Source: Candidatus Saccharimonadota bacterium
GTDB lineage: Bacteria > Patescibacteriota > Gracilibacteria > BD1-5 > UBA2023
NCBI GenBank assembly: GCA_042852035.1
Contig: BAAFHK010000001.1
Location: 690,001-722,000 of the forward strand
Direction: 5' to 3'
Length of the DNA: 32,000 nt
Part shown: positions 9,930-20,531 of the stretch, in pieces
How positions within the stretch are numbered: position 1 is the first letter of the stretch
Layout: each line of letters opens with the position of its first letter
The notes under the pieces: model-generated
What the model was told of the DNA's origin: nothing
The model's database searches: none
The model's input: the letters and a program-made list of their open reading frames with translations, nothing else
Program-made: the position numbers and the translations under genes

Positions 9930-11348
9930 GTGAAGCGACACGAAATCATAGAGACAATTACTACCCCAATCCTTGAGCTCGCCTGAATGGTTGGGATTTT
10001 CTTTATCGCTTATAATCTTCGTCAAATTACTGATTGAATCCCCGGAATACAGCTTCCTATGCCCTATATTTCGAGAGAACAATTTACGCCATTTGTTATA
10101 TCTTGAGTTATTTTTTGGGGGATGGTTTTTGGCGTGAATTGACTCTATACTCATAGACAAGAACAACCTCTTTTTGATACTATAAAAAATGTTATTATAT
10201 ATTCTGGCATATGGTTTATAATGTATATATGATTTATCTATCTTAGCACCGGATTTCTCTTTTCAAAAGAAATCCCCCGTCTTATAATCTGATATGTCTA
10301 TATCCTATCTACTCTATTCTCTATTATTTTAAGAACATTAATATATTTTTTTCTCCGAATCCTCTATAATAAGAATGTAATCCCGAAGCAGGAGGTTCTC
10401 ATTATCTGAAAACCAGAAAATGAGATACTCAAAAATGATACCAGTACCCATTATATCTATTTAGACGCAACGGAAATTCAAATCATAGAGGAAAGCATTC
10501 GCCAAAAAAAGATTGATAGAGTTTTACTACTCGATCCATTAGGTGAAAATGAAAAAGCAAAAATTGTAAAACTCTGTTCGATTTATGGTATAAGTTTTTC
10601 TTATCCAAAAATACTTCCGGAAGTATACTGAATTTCACAGAAAGAAAATTTTATTGCTTGAATTGTTGTCATAGAAAGTACTTCATTGAAGATTTGAGCA
10701 TGGTGAAGGATATTTAAGCGATTTTTTGATATAATCATCTCTTTAATTTCACTTTTAATTCTGTCTCCATTTTTTTTAGTAATTTGAATACTAATAAAGA
10801 TTGAAGATCCTTTGGGCCCAATAATATTCAAGAATAAACGAATATGACACTGATGAAAAGAATTTTATCTTCTGAAATTCAGGTATATGTATTGGAAATA
10901 TTGTGTAAAAGATGCTTATGGGGTAAATCCAGAAAGTGATAGAGCCCTTCAATACGAAGAAAAGCTGAAAGAGACATTAGATGATCGGAAGTGACCACTC
11001 TATAAAATAGCAAATGATCCTCGAAAGACTCGAATTTGAAGGATTATTGAAAAACTTTCTATTGATGAACTTCCTCAACTCTGGAATGTTCTCATTTGAG
11101 ATATGTCACTCGTAGGACCACGACCCCATCAGCCTCGTGAGGTAGAAAATTATAATGAGCACCACTATCAGGTACTTACGATAAAACCCTGAATAACAGG
11201 AATGGCACAGGTATTTTGAAGAGATAAAAATACTTTCGATGATGAAGTTCGTTATGATGTATACTACATAGAGCACTATTCATTGCTCCTTGATTTTCTC
11301 ATTATTGGAAAAACTTTCTTAGTTATTCTTACCCGAGCTTTTCGATAA
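9930..11348 (+). CDS. Polyprenyl-phosphate sugar phosphotransferase (bacterial sugar transferase family, WbaP/WcaJ-like)
   Basis: The frame is open from 9927 to TAA 11346-11348 with TGA=Gly. C-terminal catalytic domain: KRFFDIIISLISLLILSPFFLVIGILIKIEDPLGPIIFKNKRIGHGGKEFYLLKFRYM...[27 protein letters not shown]...IKPGITGMAQV. The N-terminus has TM helices and VLIIG. The start is uncertain: GTG 9930 keeps the first TM helix, and ATG 9987 is the alternative. Confidence 0.85.
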
Positions 11349-11378
11349 TTCTAAATGATGCAGTCAGGACGAAAAACC

Positions 11379-11405
11379 TTGCAAATCAAAAAATATATAT
11401 ATAAT
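11379..11405 (+). promoter_or_regulatory. Putative sigma70-type promoter of the valS leader (TTGCAA-15 nt-TATAAT)
   Basis: TTGCAA at 11379-11384 and TATAAT at 11400-11405. An ATG follows 6 nt after the -10 box (11412). Confidence 0.4.
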
Positions 11406-11411
11406 GAACTT

Positions 11412-11507
11412 ATGTCATTAATTCTTATCCCATCTGTGGTGGTCACACAATAGGGAGAGGAATATGTTTTTTCATGACAGATCCTCTCCGCTTTTGGAGA
11501 GGTTTTT
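11412..11507 (+). promoter_or_regulatory. Candidate leader-peptide transcription attenuator upstream of valS
   Basis: A mini-ORF at 11412-11453 encodes MSLILIPSVVVTQ*, with three consecutive Val codons at 11436-11444. It is extendable in frame to ATG 11355. The core GGAGAGG occurs twice (11454-11460 and 11496-11502), and both copies are complementary to CCTCTCC (11483-11489). The second pairing is followed by TTTTT. Confidence 0.4.
11483..11507 (+). terminator. Rho-independent terminator-like hairpin (7-bp stem, 6-nt loop, U5)
   Basis: CCTCTCC-GCTTTT-GGAGAGG-TTTTT, located 57 nt upstream of the valS ATG. Confidence 0.55.
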
Positions 11508-11563
11508 CGTAGAGAAAACACCTCATGTATTTCTTCTTTTTTTAAAATTTTAACTCACAAACC

Positions 11564-14221
11564 ATGTCAGACTTTCCGAAGCAATATGACCCAAAAATAT
11601 GTGAATGATACATCCAGTCAATCTGGAAAGAAAAGAACATAGGCTCACCTCTTTCTTCGAAAACTTGAGAAACATTTTACATACCAATTCCTCCTCCAAA
11701 TGTCACTGGAAATCTCCATCTCTGACATGCACTCACTCTGACTCTTGAGGATATCATGTCAAGATATCATAGACTTAAATGAGATGCAACGCTCTGGGTT
11801 CCAGGAACAGATCATGCGGGTATTGCGACACAAGCTCAGGTAGAAAAACGCCTCGAAAGACAAGGCTCCTCAAGAAAATCTCTTTGAAGAGAAAAGTTTC
11901 TTGAAGCCTGTCGTGATTGGGTAAAGGAATATGGATGAAATATTCAAAAACAAATGTCTCTCATGGGGGCTTCAGTTTCATGGGAACATGAGCGATATAC
12001 TTTCGATGAAAAATCAAACCATCTTGTAGAAGATGTTTTTGTAGAACTTTATAAAAGATGACTCATATACCGCGGTGAGTATATGGTAAATTATTCACCT
12101 GTACTTGAATCTGTAATTTCAGATATTGAAGTTGAGTACCAAGAGCTCGATGAGAAAATGTACTATGTAAACTATTTTGTTTCAGGATCGGATAAGGAAA
12201 TAATGGTAGCAACTACTCGTCCTGAGACAATGCTTGCGGATCAGGCAATTGCTGTCCACCCAAAAGATAAACGATATAAAAAACTCATTGGTAGATCTGT
12301 TGTTCTTCCAATAGTAAATAAAGAAATCCCAATTATTGCTGATGATATGGTAGATATGGAGTTCTGAACTGGGGCAGTAAAAATAACCCCCGCTCACGAC
12401 CCAAGTGATTTTGAGTTTGCAAAAAGACACAACTTGCGAACAAACTATAGAGTTATAGATAAGAATGGCTTTATGACAAAGGAAGCTGGAACATTTGCTT
12501 GATTAAAATGAATTGAAGAGGCTCGATCGAATATTGTTGAACTTCTTCGTGCAAAAGGAAATCTCGTACGGGTAGAACCATATAAACACAAAGTGGGATT
12601 TTGCAGTCGAGGAAAATGTCGTATTGAATCTGTTGTTTCTACTCAGTGGTTTGTGAAGGCTGATTTAATGGCTAAAAAAGTTATAGAATGATATGAGAAA
12701 AAGGAATTCACAATTATTCCTTCAAGGTATGAAAAGGTATTTGAAGATTGGATATATAATCTAAGAGATTGGTGTATATCTCGGCAACTTTGGTGGTGAC
12801 ACCAGATACCTGCCTACTATCATAAAGAATCATGAGAATTACTCTGAGTAACGAGAGATCCTACCCAGCTTGAGGAAAAATACGGCAAAGAAAATCTTGT
12901 TAGAGATTCTGATGTTCTTGATACCTGGTTTTCAAGTGGACTCTGGCCATTTTCTATACTTGATTGGAATTTTGAAAATCCTGGTGAACTTTTTAAGAAA
13001 TTTTATCCTGCAAATGTTCTCGAGACATGACATGATATTTTATTCTTCTGGGTTATACGGATGTTACTCATGGGATATGAGCTTACTGGGCAAACCCCAT
13101 TTAAAACTATCTATCTTCACGGCCTTATTCTCGATGAAAATGGTAAAAAAATGAGTAAAAGTTGGGGGAATGTTATAGATCCAATCGAGGTAATACAAGA
13201 ATATTCTGCTGATGCTCTCAGGCTTGCAACAGTACTCGGAAATACTCCAGGGAATAATCTTAATTTCTCAAAAAATACCGTAGCTGAATATGGACTCTTT
13301 CTGAACAAATTATGGAATATTGTAAGATTCACCTGGATGAATGTTTGAGACATATCAAAAAATAGATCTGAAATAGAAAAAGAAATACTTAAAAACAAAG
13401 ATGAGCTTCTCCCTTATGAGTCATGGATTCTTTCCCGTCTTGCAAAGCAAATAAGTCGTATGACGGAAGGTATGGAAGATTACTCATTTTCACTCTCCTG
13501 ATCAGAGCTCCTCTCCTTTATTCGTGATGAATTTGCTGATTTTGCTATTGAAGCCTATAAAATCGAAAAGGATCACAGTAAAGTTTGATCGTTGGTTATG
13601 CAGCTCTGTATTCTTGATATACTTACCCTCCTTCATCCGTATGCACCTCATATTACGGAAATGCTTTACGGACAGATTACGGGTGGAAAGATTCTAGCAA
13701 CATCTGAATGGCCAAAAACACTCCTCAAAAGTGACGAAGAAAGCGAGTCGTCAATGACAAGAATCTGGAATGTTATACGTACCCTAAGAAATCTCAGAGC
13801 TGAATCAAGCATCAAACCTGGTGAATACAGAAAAGCATATCTTTCTTGTCCGAAAATTTATCTTACCTCTTTAGAATCCAACATTAATCTTATCGAAGGC
13901 CTTGCAAGAATTCAAGATCTTGAGATAACTCTTTCCCAAGTGAAACACCCAGGATTCTCGTATGGAGTGGTAGATGGAATAGATATCTATTTTGATGCAT
14001 CTATTGATGCTGAGAAAATTCTCGAAGAAAGAAGTCGTCTCGAGAAAGAAATCCAAACGAAAAAGACGTACATAAGAAGTATGCAGACGAAATTAAAAAA
14101 TAACGCCTTTATCTCAAATGCACCTGAAAAAGTTGTAAGAGCAGAGATGGAAAAACTTCATATTGCTGAAACCGAGTTGAAGAAATTCGAAGAAAAACTC
14201 ACACAGCTTGAAGAGGTATAG
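11564..14221 (+). CDS. valS: Valine--tRNA ligase
   Basis: A single 885-aa frame when the 18 in-frame TGA codons are read as Gly. Signatures: [15 protein letters not shown] (HIGH), [56 protein letters not shown] (KMSKS), and a C-terminal coiled coil. It joins track ORFs 12083..12367, 13061..13348 and 13592..14221. Confidence 0.97.
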
Positions 14222-20434: not shown

Positions 20435-20531
20435 ATAATATTGTCAATTCTTTTTTAGAGGAATAGTTCTCTTTTACTCGACAGATAAAGAAAGAGGGTT
20501 ATACTTCAATTCAAAATATAATATATACTGT

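What the first reader, a model, noticed from the sequence alone, without database searches (positions are those of the whole stretch)
11355..11566. Candidate valine-sensing leader-peptide attenuator in front of valS
A 215-nt spacer lies between the sugar-transferase stop and valS. It contains the following elements:
- A promoter-like TTGCAA/TATAAT pair.
- A 13-codon ORF starting 6 nt after the -10 box: MSLILIPSVVVTQ-stop. It has three consecutive Val codons, GTG GTG GTC, at 11436-11444. It is also extendable in frame to ATG 11355, only 7 nt after the upstream gene.
- Its TAG stop (11451-11453) overlaps GGGAGAGG (11453-11460).
- CCTCTCC (11483-11489).
- A second GGAGAGG (11496-11502), followed by TTTTT.

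The two identical GGAGAGG copies compete for the same CCTCTCC. The upstream pairing would act as an antiterminator (8 bp, 20-nt loop). The downstream pairing would be a terminator (7 bp, 6-nt loop, U-run).

Proposed logic: a ribosome reaching the stop codon would cover the upstream copy and favour termination. A ribosome stalled on the Val codons would leave that copy free and favour read-through into valS. Leader-peptide attenuation is established for amino-acid operons and for pheST in enterobacteria. I know of no description of it for valS in CPR bacteria. This is a hypothesis built on sequence only.
Basis: inference. Interest (0 to 1): 0.65.

Follow-up and report, generated by a model that had tools for sequence, protein, structure and literature searches.

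The report
Valine-sensing leader-peptide attenuator before valS
A short upstream reading frame with a run of valine codons, followed by two mutually exclusive RNA hairpins and a terminator, most likely lets this uncultured Gracilibacterium make more valyl-tRNA synthetase when charged tRNA-Val runs low; this is the classic trp-type switch, found here in a new lineage and before a new gene.

Summary
The window uses TGA as a glycine codon (genetic code 25, Gracilibacteria) and shows no Shine-Dalgarno motifs.

I collected valS upstream regions from public genomes and metagenomes. The same arrangement occurs in 15 distinct sequences, in relatives whose ValRS is about 69-85% identical. It has these parts:
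- A TTGNAA-N15/16-TATAAT-type promoter.
- An ATG 6-7 nt after the -10 box, which predicts a leaderless mRNA.
- An 11-14-codon ORF (19 codons in L114) with 2-4 Val codons near its end.
- A stop codon 1-10 nt before "region 2" (14 of 15).
- A region 3 that can pair with region 2 (antiterminator) or with region 4 plus a U-run (terminator).

Constrained folding reproduces the classic logic in 15/15 leaders. Both helices show compensatory changes, including three-way covariation.

Relatives without the element have the same promoter directly before valS. In one relative only 13 nt separate the U-run from the valS ATG, so valS must be transcribed through the terminator.

Verdict: this is a real, conserved, ribosome-mediated attenuator. 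It is a new member of a known kind: valS, a CPR lineage, and a leaderless leader ORF. There is no expression data. The invariant GUGGU, built on a minor Val codon, is unexplained.

The parts
9987..11348 (+). Upstream gene: bacterial sugar transferase (TGA read as Gly). No terminator lies between it and the leader promoter.
   Evidence: Pfam PF02397, E = 2.4e-59. The same neighbour is found in relatives.
11379..11384 (+). -35-like hexamer TTGCAA
   Evidence: Read directly. TTGNAA sits at a fixed -33/-34 from the leader ATG in 14/14 leaders (with L103 read), and in L116 by eye.
11400..11405 (+). -10 hexamer TATAAT, 15 nt after the -35 hexamer and 6 nt before the leader ATG
   Evidence: TATAAT, TATACT or TATTAT lies 6-7 nt before the ATG in all leaders.
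11412..11453 (+). Leader ORF MSLILIPSVVVTQ-TAG. It is predicted to start at the transcript's 5' end (leaderless).
   Evidence: Homologous ORFs occur in 14 other distinct leaders.
11436..11444 (+). Regulatory Val codons GTG GTG GTC. GTG and GTC are the two rarest Val codons in this window.
   Evidence: Codon usage: GTG 0.11 and GTC 0.10 of Val codons in window genes. GTGGT is invariant in 15/15 leaders.
11421..11431 (+). Region 1 (AUUCUUAUCCC). It pairs with region 2 when no ribosome is on the leader.
   Evidence: MFE and centroid fold. The 1:2 hairpin is -14.9 kcal/mol. Region 2 is paired to upstream sequence in 14/14 leaders and in L116.
11453..11463 (+). Region 2 (GGGAGAGGAAU). Positions 11454-11461 form the 5' arm of the antiterminator. 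The region overlaps the TAG stop.
11482..11489 (+). Region 3 (UCCUCUCC). It is shared by the antiterminator (with region 2) and the terminator (with region 4).
11496..11502 (+). Region 4 (GGAGAGG), the 3' arm of the terminator hairpin
11503..11507 (+). U-run of the intrinsic terminator
11564..14221 (+). Regulated gene valS (valyl-tRNA synthetase, 885 aa, 18 in-frame TGA = Gly)
   Evidence: Pfam tRNA-synt_1, Anticodon_1 and Val_tRNA-synt_C. Homologues.

Best explanation
This is a ribosome-mediated (leader-peptide) transcription attenuator of valS.

**Start of the transcript (inferred).** Transcription starts from the TTGCAA/TATAAT promoter at or next to the A of ATG 11412. The 13-codon leader ORF is therefore translated as a leaderless mRNA.

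**When Val-tRNA is plentiful.** The ribosome runs to the TAG (11451-11453). There it either occludes region 2 (11453-11463) or leaves, which lets region 1 (11421-11431) re-pair with region 2. Region 3 (11482-11489) then pairs with region 4 (11496-11502). RNA polymerase terminates at the U-run (11503-11507).

**When charged tRNA-Val is scarce.** The ribosome stalls on GUG GUG GUC (11436-11444). It holds region 1 and leaves region 2 free. Region 2 pairs with region 3 as soon as region 3 is made (8 bp, -17 kcal/mol). The terminator cannot form, and transcription continues into valS, raising ValRS.

**What is shown.**
- All sequence elements are present.
- They are conserved in 15 leaders.
- Both helices covary.
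- The folding energetics fit the model.
- The geometry fits the model.

**What is inferred.**
- The transcription start.
- Translation of the ORF.
- Stalling at the Val codons.
- The regulatory response itself.
For: 1. **Conservation.** There are 15 distinct leaders upstream of valS in Gracilibacteria whose ValRS is about 69-85% identical. Their peptides include MSLILIPSVVVTQ, MSKLLFLTSVVVTQ, MNILLSSSVVIR, MRISPLSSVVLL, MQKALIASVVVR, MITLAQTVVVNV, MTSLIFPSQVVQSL and MNLQLIASVVVKA.
2. **Reading frame.** The distance from the ATG to GTGGT is always 24 or 27 nt, apart from one frameshifted MAG sequence. In the window's closest cluster, all four kinds of change within S-V-V-V-T-Q-stop are synonymous third-position changes: GTG>GTA, ACA>ACG, CAA>CAG and TAG>TAA. 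The N-terminal codons change freely.
3. **Geometry.** The first Val codon lies 13-24 nt before region 2. The stop lies 1-10 nt before region 2 in 13 of the 14 leaders; L116 is about the same by eye.
4. **Constrained folds.** These cover all 15 leaders:
   - With no ribosome, the 1:2 hairpin plus the terminator form in 14/15.
   - With a ribosome on the first Val codon, the antiterminator forms in 15/15 (-9.3 to -21.9 kcal/mol).
   - With a ribosome on the stop, the antiterminator is lost in 13/15.
5. **Covariation.** The terminator has 85.7% of cells paired, 5 pairs with double changes, and a score of 0.225 against 0.112 for shuffles (0/500). The antiterminator has 82.5%, 5 pairs, and 0.252 against 0.096 (0/500). 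Slid controls are far lower. Three-way compensation occurs at region 3 positions 4-6.
6. **The terminator lies inside the only route to valS.** Relatives L002, L003, L031, L036 and L118 have the same promoter 25-45 nt before valS with no ORF and no terminator. In L110 only 13 nt separate the U-run from the valS ATG, and in L008 and L023 only 30-31 nt.
7. **Leaderless start is plausible.** No SD motif lies before any of the 17 window ORFs. The -10 box sits 6-7 nt before the ATG in 15/15 leaders.
8. **Val enrichment.** Leaders have 2-4 Val in 11-14 codons (3 in 19 in L114), against about 6% Val in ValRS. GTG makes up 66% of leader Val codons against 16% in the valS genes.
9. **Precedent.** Similar elements are known or predicted for pheST, for Streptomyces leuS and trpS (PMC1262725), and as leaderless leader peptides before aaRS genes in Deinococcus deserti (PMC4007540).
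Against: - There are no transcript, ribosome or reporter data. All sequences are from MAGs or metagenomes.
- An open frame on its own is not informative here. The +1 frame is open in 11/15 leaders and the +2 frame in 15/15.
- GUGGU is invariant even though GTG is a minor codon. This hints at an RNA-level constraint that codon identity alone does not explain.
- In L023 and L094 the stop lies 9-10 nt before region 2. A terminating ribosome would therefore not fully mask region 2, and those leaders must rely on 1:2 refolding after release.
- In L008 the Val codons are out of frame with the 5'-terminal ATG. In L114 a TGA (= Gly) replaces the stop.
- The distribution is patchy, and equally close relatives lack the element.
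- Transcription-translation coupling has not been studied in CPR bacteria.
Confidence: 0.78

Rival explanations
1. It is a genuine terminator/antiterminator switch in the valS 5' UTR, but the ribosome is not the sensor. One option is that uncharged tRNA-Val docks its 3' ACCA on the invariant UGGU, as in a minimal T-box. Another is that a protein, for example ValRS itself, binds the conserved CAUCUGUGGU segment.
For: - GUGGU is invariant in 15/15 leaders although GTG supplies only 11-16% of Val codons in genes.
- UGGU is the complement of the ACCA end of tRNA-Val (own knowledge of T-box rules).
- Frame openness is not in itself significant.
Against: - No T-box or any other Rfam family is found in the window or in 14 relatives.
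- Only about 40 nt precede region 2, which leaves no room for a Stem I or specifier loop.
- UGGU is not in a bulge of the antiterminator. It lies 10-20 nt 5' of it.
- This model does not explain the ATG fixed 6-7 nt after the -10 box, the 24/27-nt phasing, the in-frame stop abutting region 2, or the synonymous-only changes.
- The loop between regions 2 and 3 is not conserved across lineages, so no common protein site is evident.
Confidence: 0.1
2. The hairpin and U-run simply end an independent short transcript (a small-protein or sRNA gene, or read-through from the sugar-transferase gene). On this view valS has its own promoter downstream, and the Val run and the duplicated arm have no regulatory role.
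For: - In the window 56 nt lie between the U-run and valS, and they include a TAAAAT that could serve as a weak -10.
- The terminator is a standard intrinsic terminator.
Against: - In L110 only 13 nt, and in L008 and L023 only 30-31 nt, separate the U-run from the valS ATG. That is too short for a promoter.
- Relatives without the element use the same promoter directly for valS and have no terminator after the transferase gene.
- The antiterminator arm covaries with region 3. A plain terminator has no need for this.
Confidence: 0.07
3. It is a chance coincidence of a short ORF, a repeat and a hairpin in an AT-rich spacer.
For: Short open frames are common in this pyrimidine-rich stretch.
Against: - The arrangement recurs in 15 distinct sequences with diverged primary sequence and compensatory changes.
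- The generic screen finds almost nothing else in about 1.4 Mb of strand sequence.
- Fold z-scores are -3.4 and -3.8.
Confidence: 0.02

Closest known systems
E. coli pheST attenuator (pheM leader peptide)
   Same: It controls an aminoacyl-tRNA synthetase operon through a short leader ORF rich in the cognate codons, followed by alternative antiterminator and terminator hairpins. It has the same feedback logic: low charged tRNA leads to more synthetase. (Own knowledge; cited as the precedent in PMC1262725.)
   Different: - It senses Phe rather than Val and comes from gamma-proteobacteria.
- Its leader ORF is initiated through a Shine-Dalgarno sequence, not at the 5' end.
- There is no sequence homology. 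The best Rfam hit to a leader family in the window is Phe_leader at 17.7 bits against a gathering score of 55.
E. coli trp operon attenuator (trpL)
   Same: - It has the four-region architecture (1:2, 2:3, 3:4).
- Its leader is about 14 codons, with only 2-3 regulatory codons placed a few codons before the stop.
- The stop is close enough to region 2 that a terminating ribosome blocks the antiterminator (own knowledge; summarised in PMC4007540).
   Different: - It controls a biosynthetic operon, not a synthetase.
- It uses Trp codons.
- Its leader is SD-dependent.
- It is about 140 nt long, against 96 nt here.
ilvBN / ilvGMEDA leaders of enterobacteria
   Same: They are leader peptides that sense valine (with Leu and Ile) through runs of Val codons (own knowledge).
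   Different: They are multivalent, have longer leaders, and control biosynthetic operons. A Gracilibacterium is not expected to have such pathways.
Predicted classical attenuators upstream of leuS and trpS in Streptomyces
   Same: They are computationally predicted combinations of leader ORF, antiterminator and terminator in front of aaRS genes outside the proteobacteria (PMC1262725).
   Different: They are from Actinobacteria, involve other amino acids, occur in few genomes, and were not described as leaderless.
Leaderless leader peptides of Deinococcus deserti (e.g. cysS)
   Same: The transcription start coincides with the AUG of a roughly 10-aa peptide rich in the cognate residue, upstream of tRNA synthetase genes. 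These were proposed to act in attenuation (PMC4007540).
   Different: - A different phylum.
- The structures were not analysed in the text I could read.
- Its Table S9 was not available, so I do not know whether valS is among the 14 cases.
T-box riboswitch
   Same: It has the same regulatory target class (aaRS genes) and the same output (terminator versus antiterminator). A UGGN motif is present.
   Different: There is no Stem I, specifier loop or T-box bulge, the leader is only about 96 nt long, and there is no Rfam hit. It is a functional analogue only.

Membership tests
Ribosome-mediated (leader-peptide) transcription attenuator | A short ORF lies between the promoter and the regulated gene. 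| tested here: met
   The window has a 13-codon ORF at 11412-11453. The 15 leaders have ORFs of 11-14 codons (19 in L114).
Ribosome-mediated (leader-peptide) transcription attenuator | The ORF is enriched in codons of the amino acid relevant to the regulated gene, and this is conserved across relatives. | tested here: met
   There are 2-4 Val codons, with at least 2 adjacent, in 15/15 leaders. The ValRS genes have about 6% Val.
Ribosome-mediated (leader-peptide) transcription attenuator | A Rho-independent terminator lies between the ORF and the gene. | tested here: met
   The window has a 7-bp stem, 6-nt loop and U5. A hairpin plus T5-7 is present in all leaders.
Ribosome-mediated (leader-peptide) transcription attenuator | An antiterminator exists that is mutually exclusive with the terminator, supported by covariation. 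| tested here: met
   The 2:3 helix forms in 15/15 constrained folds. Covariation is 0.252 against 0.096 for shuffles. Three-way compensatory changes are seen. Caveat: the alignment registers were taken from the predicted structures.
Ribosome-mediated (leader-peptide) transcription attenuator | Geometry: a ribosome stalled on the regulatory codons leaves region 2 free, and a ribosome at the stop blocks it. | tested here: met
   The first Val codon lies 13-24 nt before region 2. The stop lies 1-10 nt before it, except in L114, whose stop lies inside region 2. The geometry is weak in L023 and L094, where the stop is 9-10 nt upstream.
Ribosome-mediated (leader-peptide) transcription attenuator | Region 1 pairs with region 2 in untranslated RNA (the default is termination). 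| tested here: met
   In the full-length ribosome-free fold, the 1:2 hairpin plus the terminator is the MFE in 14/15 leaders. The exception is L106, which carries a mutation in region 1. In the leader truncated just after region 2, region 2 pairs with upstream sequence in 14/14.
Ribosome-mediated (leader-peptide) transcription attenuator | The leader is translated, and read-through rises on starvation for the amino acid. | not testable with these tools
   This needs Term-seq, ribosome profiling or reporter assays.
T-box riboswitch (RF00230) | A Stem I with a specifier loop and a T-box bulge in the antiterminator, with a match to the covariance model. | tested here: not met
   No T-box hit appears even at E <= 10 in 11250-11700. 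Nothing is found at the gathering threshold in the window or in 14 relatives. Only about 40 nt precede region 2.
Leaderless mRNA | The transcription start falls at or within a few nt of the start codon. | tested here: inconclusive
   The -10 hexamer ends 6-7 nt before the ATG in 15/15 leaders, and the genome lacks SD motifs. No transcription start has been mapped.

The most novel reading that the evidence does not exclude
The invariant GUGGU is more than a pair of Val codons. On this reading its UGGU docks the ACCA end of uncharged tRNA-Val, or it must be decoded by one particular scarce tRNA-Val isoacceptor. The element would then combine ribosome stalling with direct tRNA sensing. It would be a minimal hybrid between a T-box and a leader-peptide attenuator, in a lineage with a reassigned genetic code.
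Probability: 0.05. Interest if true: 0.85.

Novelty: new member of a known kind. Interest (0 to 1): 0.5.

Why it matters
CPR/Patescibacteria are known almost only from genomes, and very little is known about how they regulate genes. In the paper library I searched, no paper mentions both the Candidate Phyla Radiation and transcription attenuation. The two papers that mention both Patescibacteria and leader peptides do so only once each and I did not open them.

If the element works as proposed, it implies three things about a reduced, probably host-dependent bacterium that uses genetic code 25:
- It monitors tRNA-Val charging.
- It couples translation to transcription closely enough for attenuation to work.
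- It initiates translation on a 5'-terminal AUG.

The element also extends leader-peptide control of synthetase genes to valS. I found no description of this for valS. It gives a compact 96-nt element that is easy to test. The covarying set of 15 sequences could seed a covariance model to search for sister elements with other codon runs before other synthetase genes.

Tried and rejected
- **T-box or other known RNA family.** Rfam gave nothing.
- **GGGAGAGG as a Shine-Dalgarno for a second ORF (ATG 11464, 29 aa).** The genome shows no SD use. The second ORF is not conserved in frame; in L103 the ATG is shifted.
- **The 32-codon extension from ATG 11355.** It is not conserved.
- **Open-frame statistics as evidence of coding.** They are uninformative because the other frames are open too.
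- **MAFFT alignment of whole leaders (A2).** It left region 4 out of register. I therefore used a 27-nt pseudo-alignment of the three arms (A3). Its registers come from the predicted structures, which biases it towards pairing.
- **Analogous leaders before other synthetase genes.**
  - There are no IleRS, LeuRS or MetRS paralogues in the fetched loci.
  - There are no tRNA genes in them either.
  - The generic screen found none.
- **Table S9 of the D. deserti paper.** It is not held, so I could not check whether valS is listed.
Full report
**1. Observation**

Reading 11200-11700 confirms every coordinate in the finding:
- The sugar-transferase ORF ends with TAA at 11346-11348 and valS starts at ATG 11564, so the spacer is 215 nt.
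- TTGCAA is at 11379-11384 and TATAAT at 11400-11405. The spacer between them is 15 nt, which is why the 16-18-nt promoter scan did not list the pair.
- ATG 11412 lies 6 nt after the -10 box and opens MSLILIPSVVVTQ-TAG. GTG GTG GTC is at 11436-11444 and TAG at 11451-11453.
- GGGAGAGG is at 11453-11460, CCTCTCC at 11483-11489, GGAGAGG at 11496-11502 and T5 at 11503-11507.
- The terminator scan independently reports 11483-11502.

**2. Genetic code and translation signals**

With the standard bacterial code the window has almost no long ORFs. If only TAA and TAG are treated as stops, long ORFs appear that are full of in-frame TGA, for example 135 in one 2383-codon frame.

Codon counts over 17 ORFs show that TGA would supply 41% of Gly codons, while Trp is already at 1.3% from TGG alone. 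TGA is therefore Gly (code 25). The closest database relatives are labelled Candidatus Gracilibacteria.

The flanking genes are a PF02397 sugar transferase and a complete ValRS. None of the 17 ORFs has a Shine-Dalgarno-like motif in the 25 nt upstream. GGGAGAGG should therefore not be read as a ribosome-binding site.

**3. Relatives**

I gathered valS loci by three routes:
- A genome scan.
- A metagenome scan with an alignment of ValRS N-termini.
- Twelve look-ups of the closest ValRS proteins.

Fifteen distinct upstream sequences carry the same arrangement: the window, L103, L104, L105, L106, L109, L001, L110, L023, L094, L112, L113, L114, L008 and L116. All belong to relatives with about 69-85% ValRS identity. 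They share these features:
- A TTGNAA hexamer fixed at -33/-34 from the leader ATG.
- A TATAAT, TATACT or TATTAT box ending 6-7 nt before that ATG.
- An ORF of 11-14 codons (19 in L114).
- At least two adjacent Val codons near the end of the ORF.
- An in-frame stop shortly after the Val codons.
- A purine-rich arm, a pyrimidine-rich arm, a second purine-rich arm and a T-run.

The peptides are:

| Locus | Leader peptide |
|---|---|
| window | MSLILIPSVVVTQ |
| L103, L104 | MSFILIPSVVVTQ |
| L106 | MSSIRIPSVVVTQ |
| L105 | MSKLLFLTSVVVTQ |
| L109 | MSKNAPLSSVVVTQ |
| L001 | MNILLSSSVVIR |
| L110 | MRISPLSSVVLL |
| L023 | MQKALIASVVVR |
| L094 | MITLAQTVVVNV |
| L116 | MNLQLIASVVVKA |
| L112 | MTSLIFPSQVVQSL |
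| L113 | MYYMFLSSIVVQSL |
| L114 | MYYIFPIHVVVRPF(G)YSRD |
| L008 | see below |

In L008 a 1-nt deletion puts the Val codons in frame with an internal ATG (MCLTLIVVESL).

**4. The terminator sits inside the valS transcription unit**

Relatives with the same gene order but no element (L002, L003, L031, L036, L118) have the homologous promoter 25-45 nt in front of valS. They have neither an ORF nor a terminator. The transferase gene therefore does not need a terminator at this position, and the promoter is the valS promoter.

In L110 only 13 nt lie between the U-run and the valS ATG. In L008 and L023 the gap is 30-31 nt. A separate promoter cannot fit there. An essential gene placed behind a terminator, with no promoter of its own, implies regulated or leaky read-through.

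**5. Structures**

The 96-nt window leader folds into a region 1:2 hairpin plus the terminator. This fold is both the MFE and the centroid, at -29.9 kcal/mol with z = -2.6. The antiterminator alone is -17.2 kcal/mol (z = -3.8) and the terminator alone is -12.9 kcal/mol (z = -3.4).

For all leaders I masked the nucleotides a ribosome would cover, taken as everything up to 12 nt past the first base of the A-site codon. I then folded the RNA both with and without the not-yet-transcribed 3' arm. The results were:
- With no ribosome, region 2 pairs with region 1 and the terminator forms in 14 of 15. The exception is L106, which has a mutation in region 1.
- With a ribosome on the first Val codon, region 2 pairs with region 3 in 15 of 15 (-9.3 to -21.9 kcal/mol).
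- With a ribosome on the stop, this pairing disappears in 13 of 15.
- In L023 and L094 the stop lies 9-10 nt before region 2. Termination there must rely on region 1:2 refolding after the ribosome is released.

Distances fit the model. The first Val codon lies 13-24 nt before region 2, and the stop lies 1-10 nt before it. L114 is the exception: its TAG lies inside region 2.

**6. Covariation**

I anchored the comparison on the invariant CCUC of region 3, and the partners change together:
- Position 6 of region 3 is C in the window group, paired with G in both region 2 and region 4. In L112, L113, L114 and L008 it is G, paired with C in region 2 (L112, L113, L114) and with C or U in region 4 (all four).
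- L023 has CCUCCAA with UUGGAGG and UGGAGGC.

On a 27-column pseudo-alignment of the three arms (A3) the counts were as follows:

| Helix | Cells paired | Pairs with double changes | Covariation score | Shuffled mean | Shuffles reaching it |
|---|---|---|---|---|---|
| Terminator | 85.7% | 5 | 0.225 | 0.112 | 0/500 |
| Antiterminator | 82.5% | 5 | 0.252 | 0.096 | 0/500 |

Sliding the partner by 1-3 columns drops pairing to 48-64%.

There are three caveats. The registers were taken from predicted structures. The sequences are related to one another. The number of independent lineages is about 7-8.

**7. Is the ORF translated?**

Openness of the frame is not evidence, because the +1 frame is open in 11/15 and the +2 frame in 15/15. 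The evidence is the following:
- **Phase.** The distance from the ATG to GTGGT is 24 or 27 nt in 14 of 15, so length changes came in threes.
- **Start position.** The ATG sits where a transcript from the conserved -10 box would begin.
- **Stop position.** The in-frame stop abuts region 2.
- **Substitution pattern.** Within the window's own cluster, all changes in S-V-V-V-T-Q-stop are synonymous third-position changes (GTG>GTA, ACA>ACG, CAA>CAG, TAG>TAA). Codons 3-8 change amino acid freely.

The Val codons used are the rare ones. GTG is 11% and GTC 10% of Val codons in the window. Across the first 14 leaders (L116 was fetched later), GTG is 25 of 38 leader Val codons, against 16% in the valS genes.

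**8. Unexplained: the invariant GUGGU**

GUGGU is invariant in all 15 leaders. A rare, slowly decoded codon would make a sensitive sensor, as with the CUA codons of the E. coli leu leader (own knowledge). UGGU is also the complement of the ACCA end of tRNA-Val.

I consider a T-box-like mechanism unlikely for three reasons:
- There is no Rfam hit.
- There is no space for a Stem I.
- UGGU lies outside the antiterminator helix.

Only a synonymous recoding experiment can separate the two ideas.

**9. Specificity**

I ran a generic screen for a short ORF plus an antiterminator plus a terminator plus a downstream gene. It covered all fetched DNA, about 685 kb on both strands. It recovered the valS leaders and only three other places, none with Val runs.

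I could not test whether other synthetase genes of these organisms carry sister elements:
- No such genes lie in the fetched loci.

**10. Comparison with known systems**

The architecture and logic are those of classical attenuation (trpL). The target class matches pheST of E. coli and the predicted leuS and trpS attenuators of Streptomyces (PMC1262725).

I found no paper describing such an element for valS. No paper in the library mentions both the Candidate Phyla Radiation and transcription attenuation. Two papers mention both Patescibacteria and leader peptides, once each, and I did not open them.

The element is therefore a new member of a known kind, and not a new mechanism.

**11. Verdict**

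I put the confidence that this is a Val-tRNA-sensing, ribosome-mediated attenuator of valS at about 0.78.

The remaining doubt comes from the complete lack of expression data and from the GUGGU constraint.

Interest is moderate, at 0.5. It is a clean, compact and testable regulatory element in a lineage where almost nothing is known about regulation, but its principle has been familiar since the 1970s.

Noticed in passing
whole window; e.g. valS 11564-14221 has 18 in-frame TGA: TGA is a sense codon. It would supply 41% of Gly codons, while Trp is already 1.3% from TGG alone. The organism therefore uses genetic code 25 (Gracilibacteria/BD1-5). With table 11 the window looks almost free of genes.
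   Followed up: yes
25 nt upstream of the 17 long ORFs of the window (e.g. 11539-11563, 20507-20531): No Shine-Dalgarno-like motif precedes any ORF. Several starts have a TATAAT-like box within about 10 nt. In relatives such as L006, L052, L061, L063 and L064, TATAAT lies 9 nt before the valS ATG. This suggests widespread leaderless or near-leaderless mRNAs.
   Followed up: partly
L071 1636-1666, L080 2346-2376, L086 2442-2472, L090 457-487, L099 2453-2482 and about 8 more loci: In more distant ValRS relatives (55-60% identity) valS is preceded by a different element. It is a covarying 11-13-bp hairpin followed by T6-7, whose loop is a (T)ATAAT -10 box. A TTGAAA -35 hexamer sits just 5' of the stem. 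The T-run ends 12-19 nt (in some loci about 100 nt) before the valS ATG. It looks like an overlapping terminator/promoter module.
   Followed up: partly
window 11436-11440 and the homologous position in 14 relatives: GTGGT (GUG followed by GUN) is invariant in all 15 leaders, although GTG is a minor Val codon (11% in window genes, 16% in the valS genes). This could reflect a rare-codon sensor, an RNA-level constraint, or a tRNA ACCA complement. It is unresolved.
   Followed up: partly
window 11413-11418 with 11474-11479: In the ribosome-free fold the 5' end including the start codon (UGUCAU) pairs with AUGACA in the loop between regions 2 and 3. L105 and L109 extend this helix through an A-run/U-run pairing. 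It may sequester the start codon of the terminated leader RNA.
   Followed up: no
L114 2294-2404; L008 485-590: L114 has TGA where L112 and L113 have the TAA stop of the leader ORF. With code 25 the ORF runs five codons further, into region 2. L008 has a 1-nt deletion that puts the Val codons out of frame with the 5'-terminal ATG, and an internal ATG restores the frame. These may be real variants or assembly errors.
   Followed up: partly
proteins P0006, P0011, P0013-P0015, P0018, P0026, P0027, P0033, P0063: Several Gracilibacteria ValRS carry a 30-55-aa insertion after the conserved LGVTRDP motif. The window's enzyme lacks it. P0037 and P0080 have insertions elsewhere.
   Followed up: no
window 11464-11553 (+): A second small ORF of 29 aa starts 3 nt after GGGAGAGG and spans the terminator. 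Its frame is not kept in the closest relatives (L103 has the ATG shifted), so it is probably not a gene.
   Followed up: yes
L025-L030, L032 (upstream of valS): In one group of relatives with about 75% identity, valS follows the M23-peptidase-like gene on the same strand instead of the sugar transferase. That gene lies downstream of valS on the opposite strand in the window. There a plain terminator and promoter precede valS and there is no leader. A local rearrangement therefore coincides with loss or absence of the attenuator.
   Followed up: no
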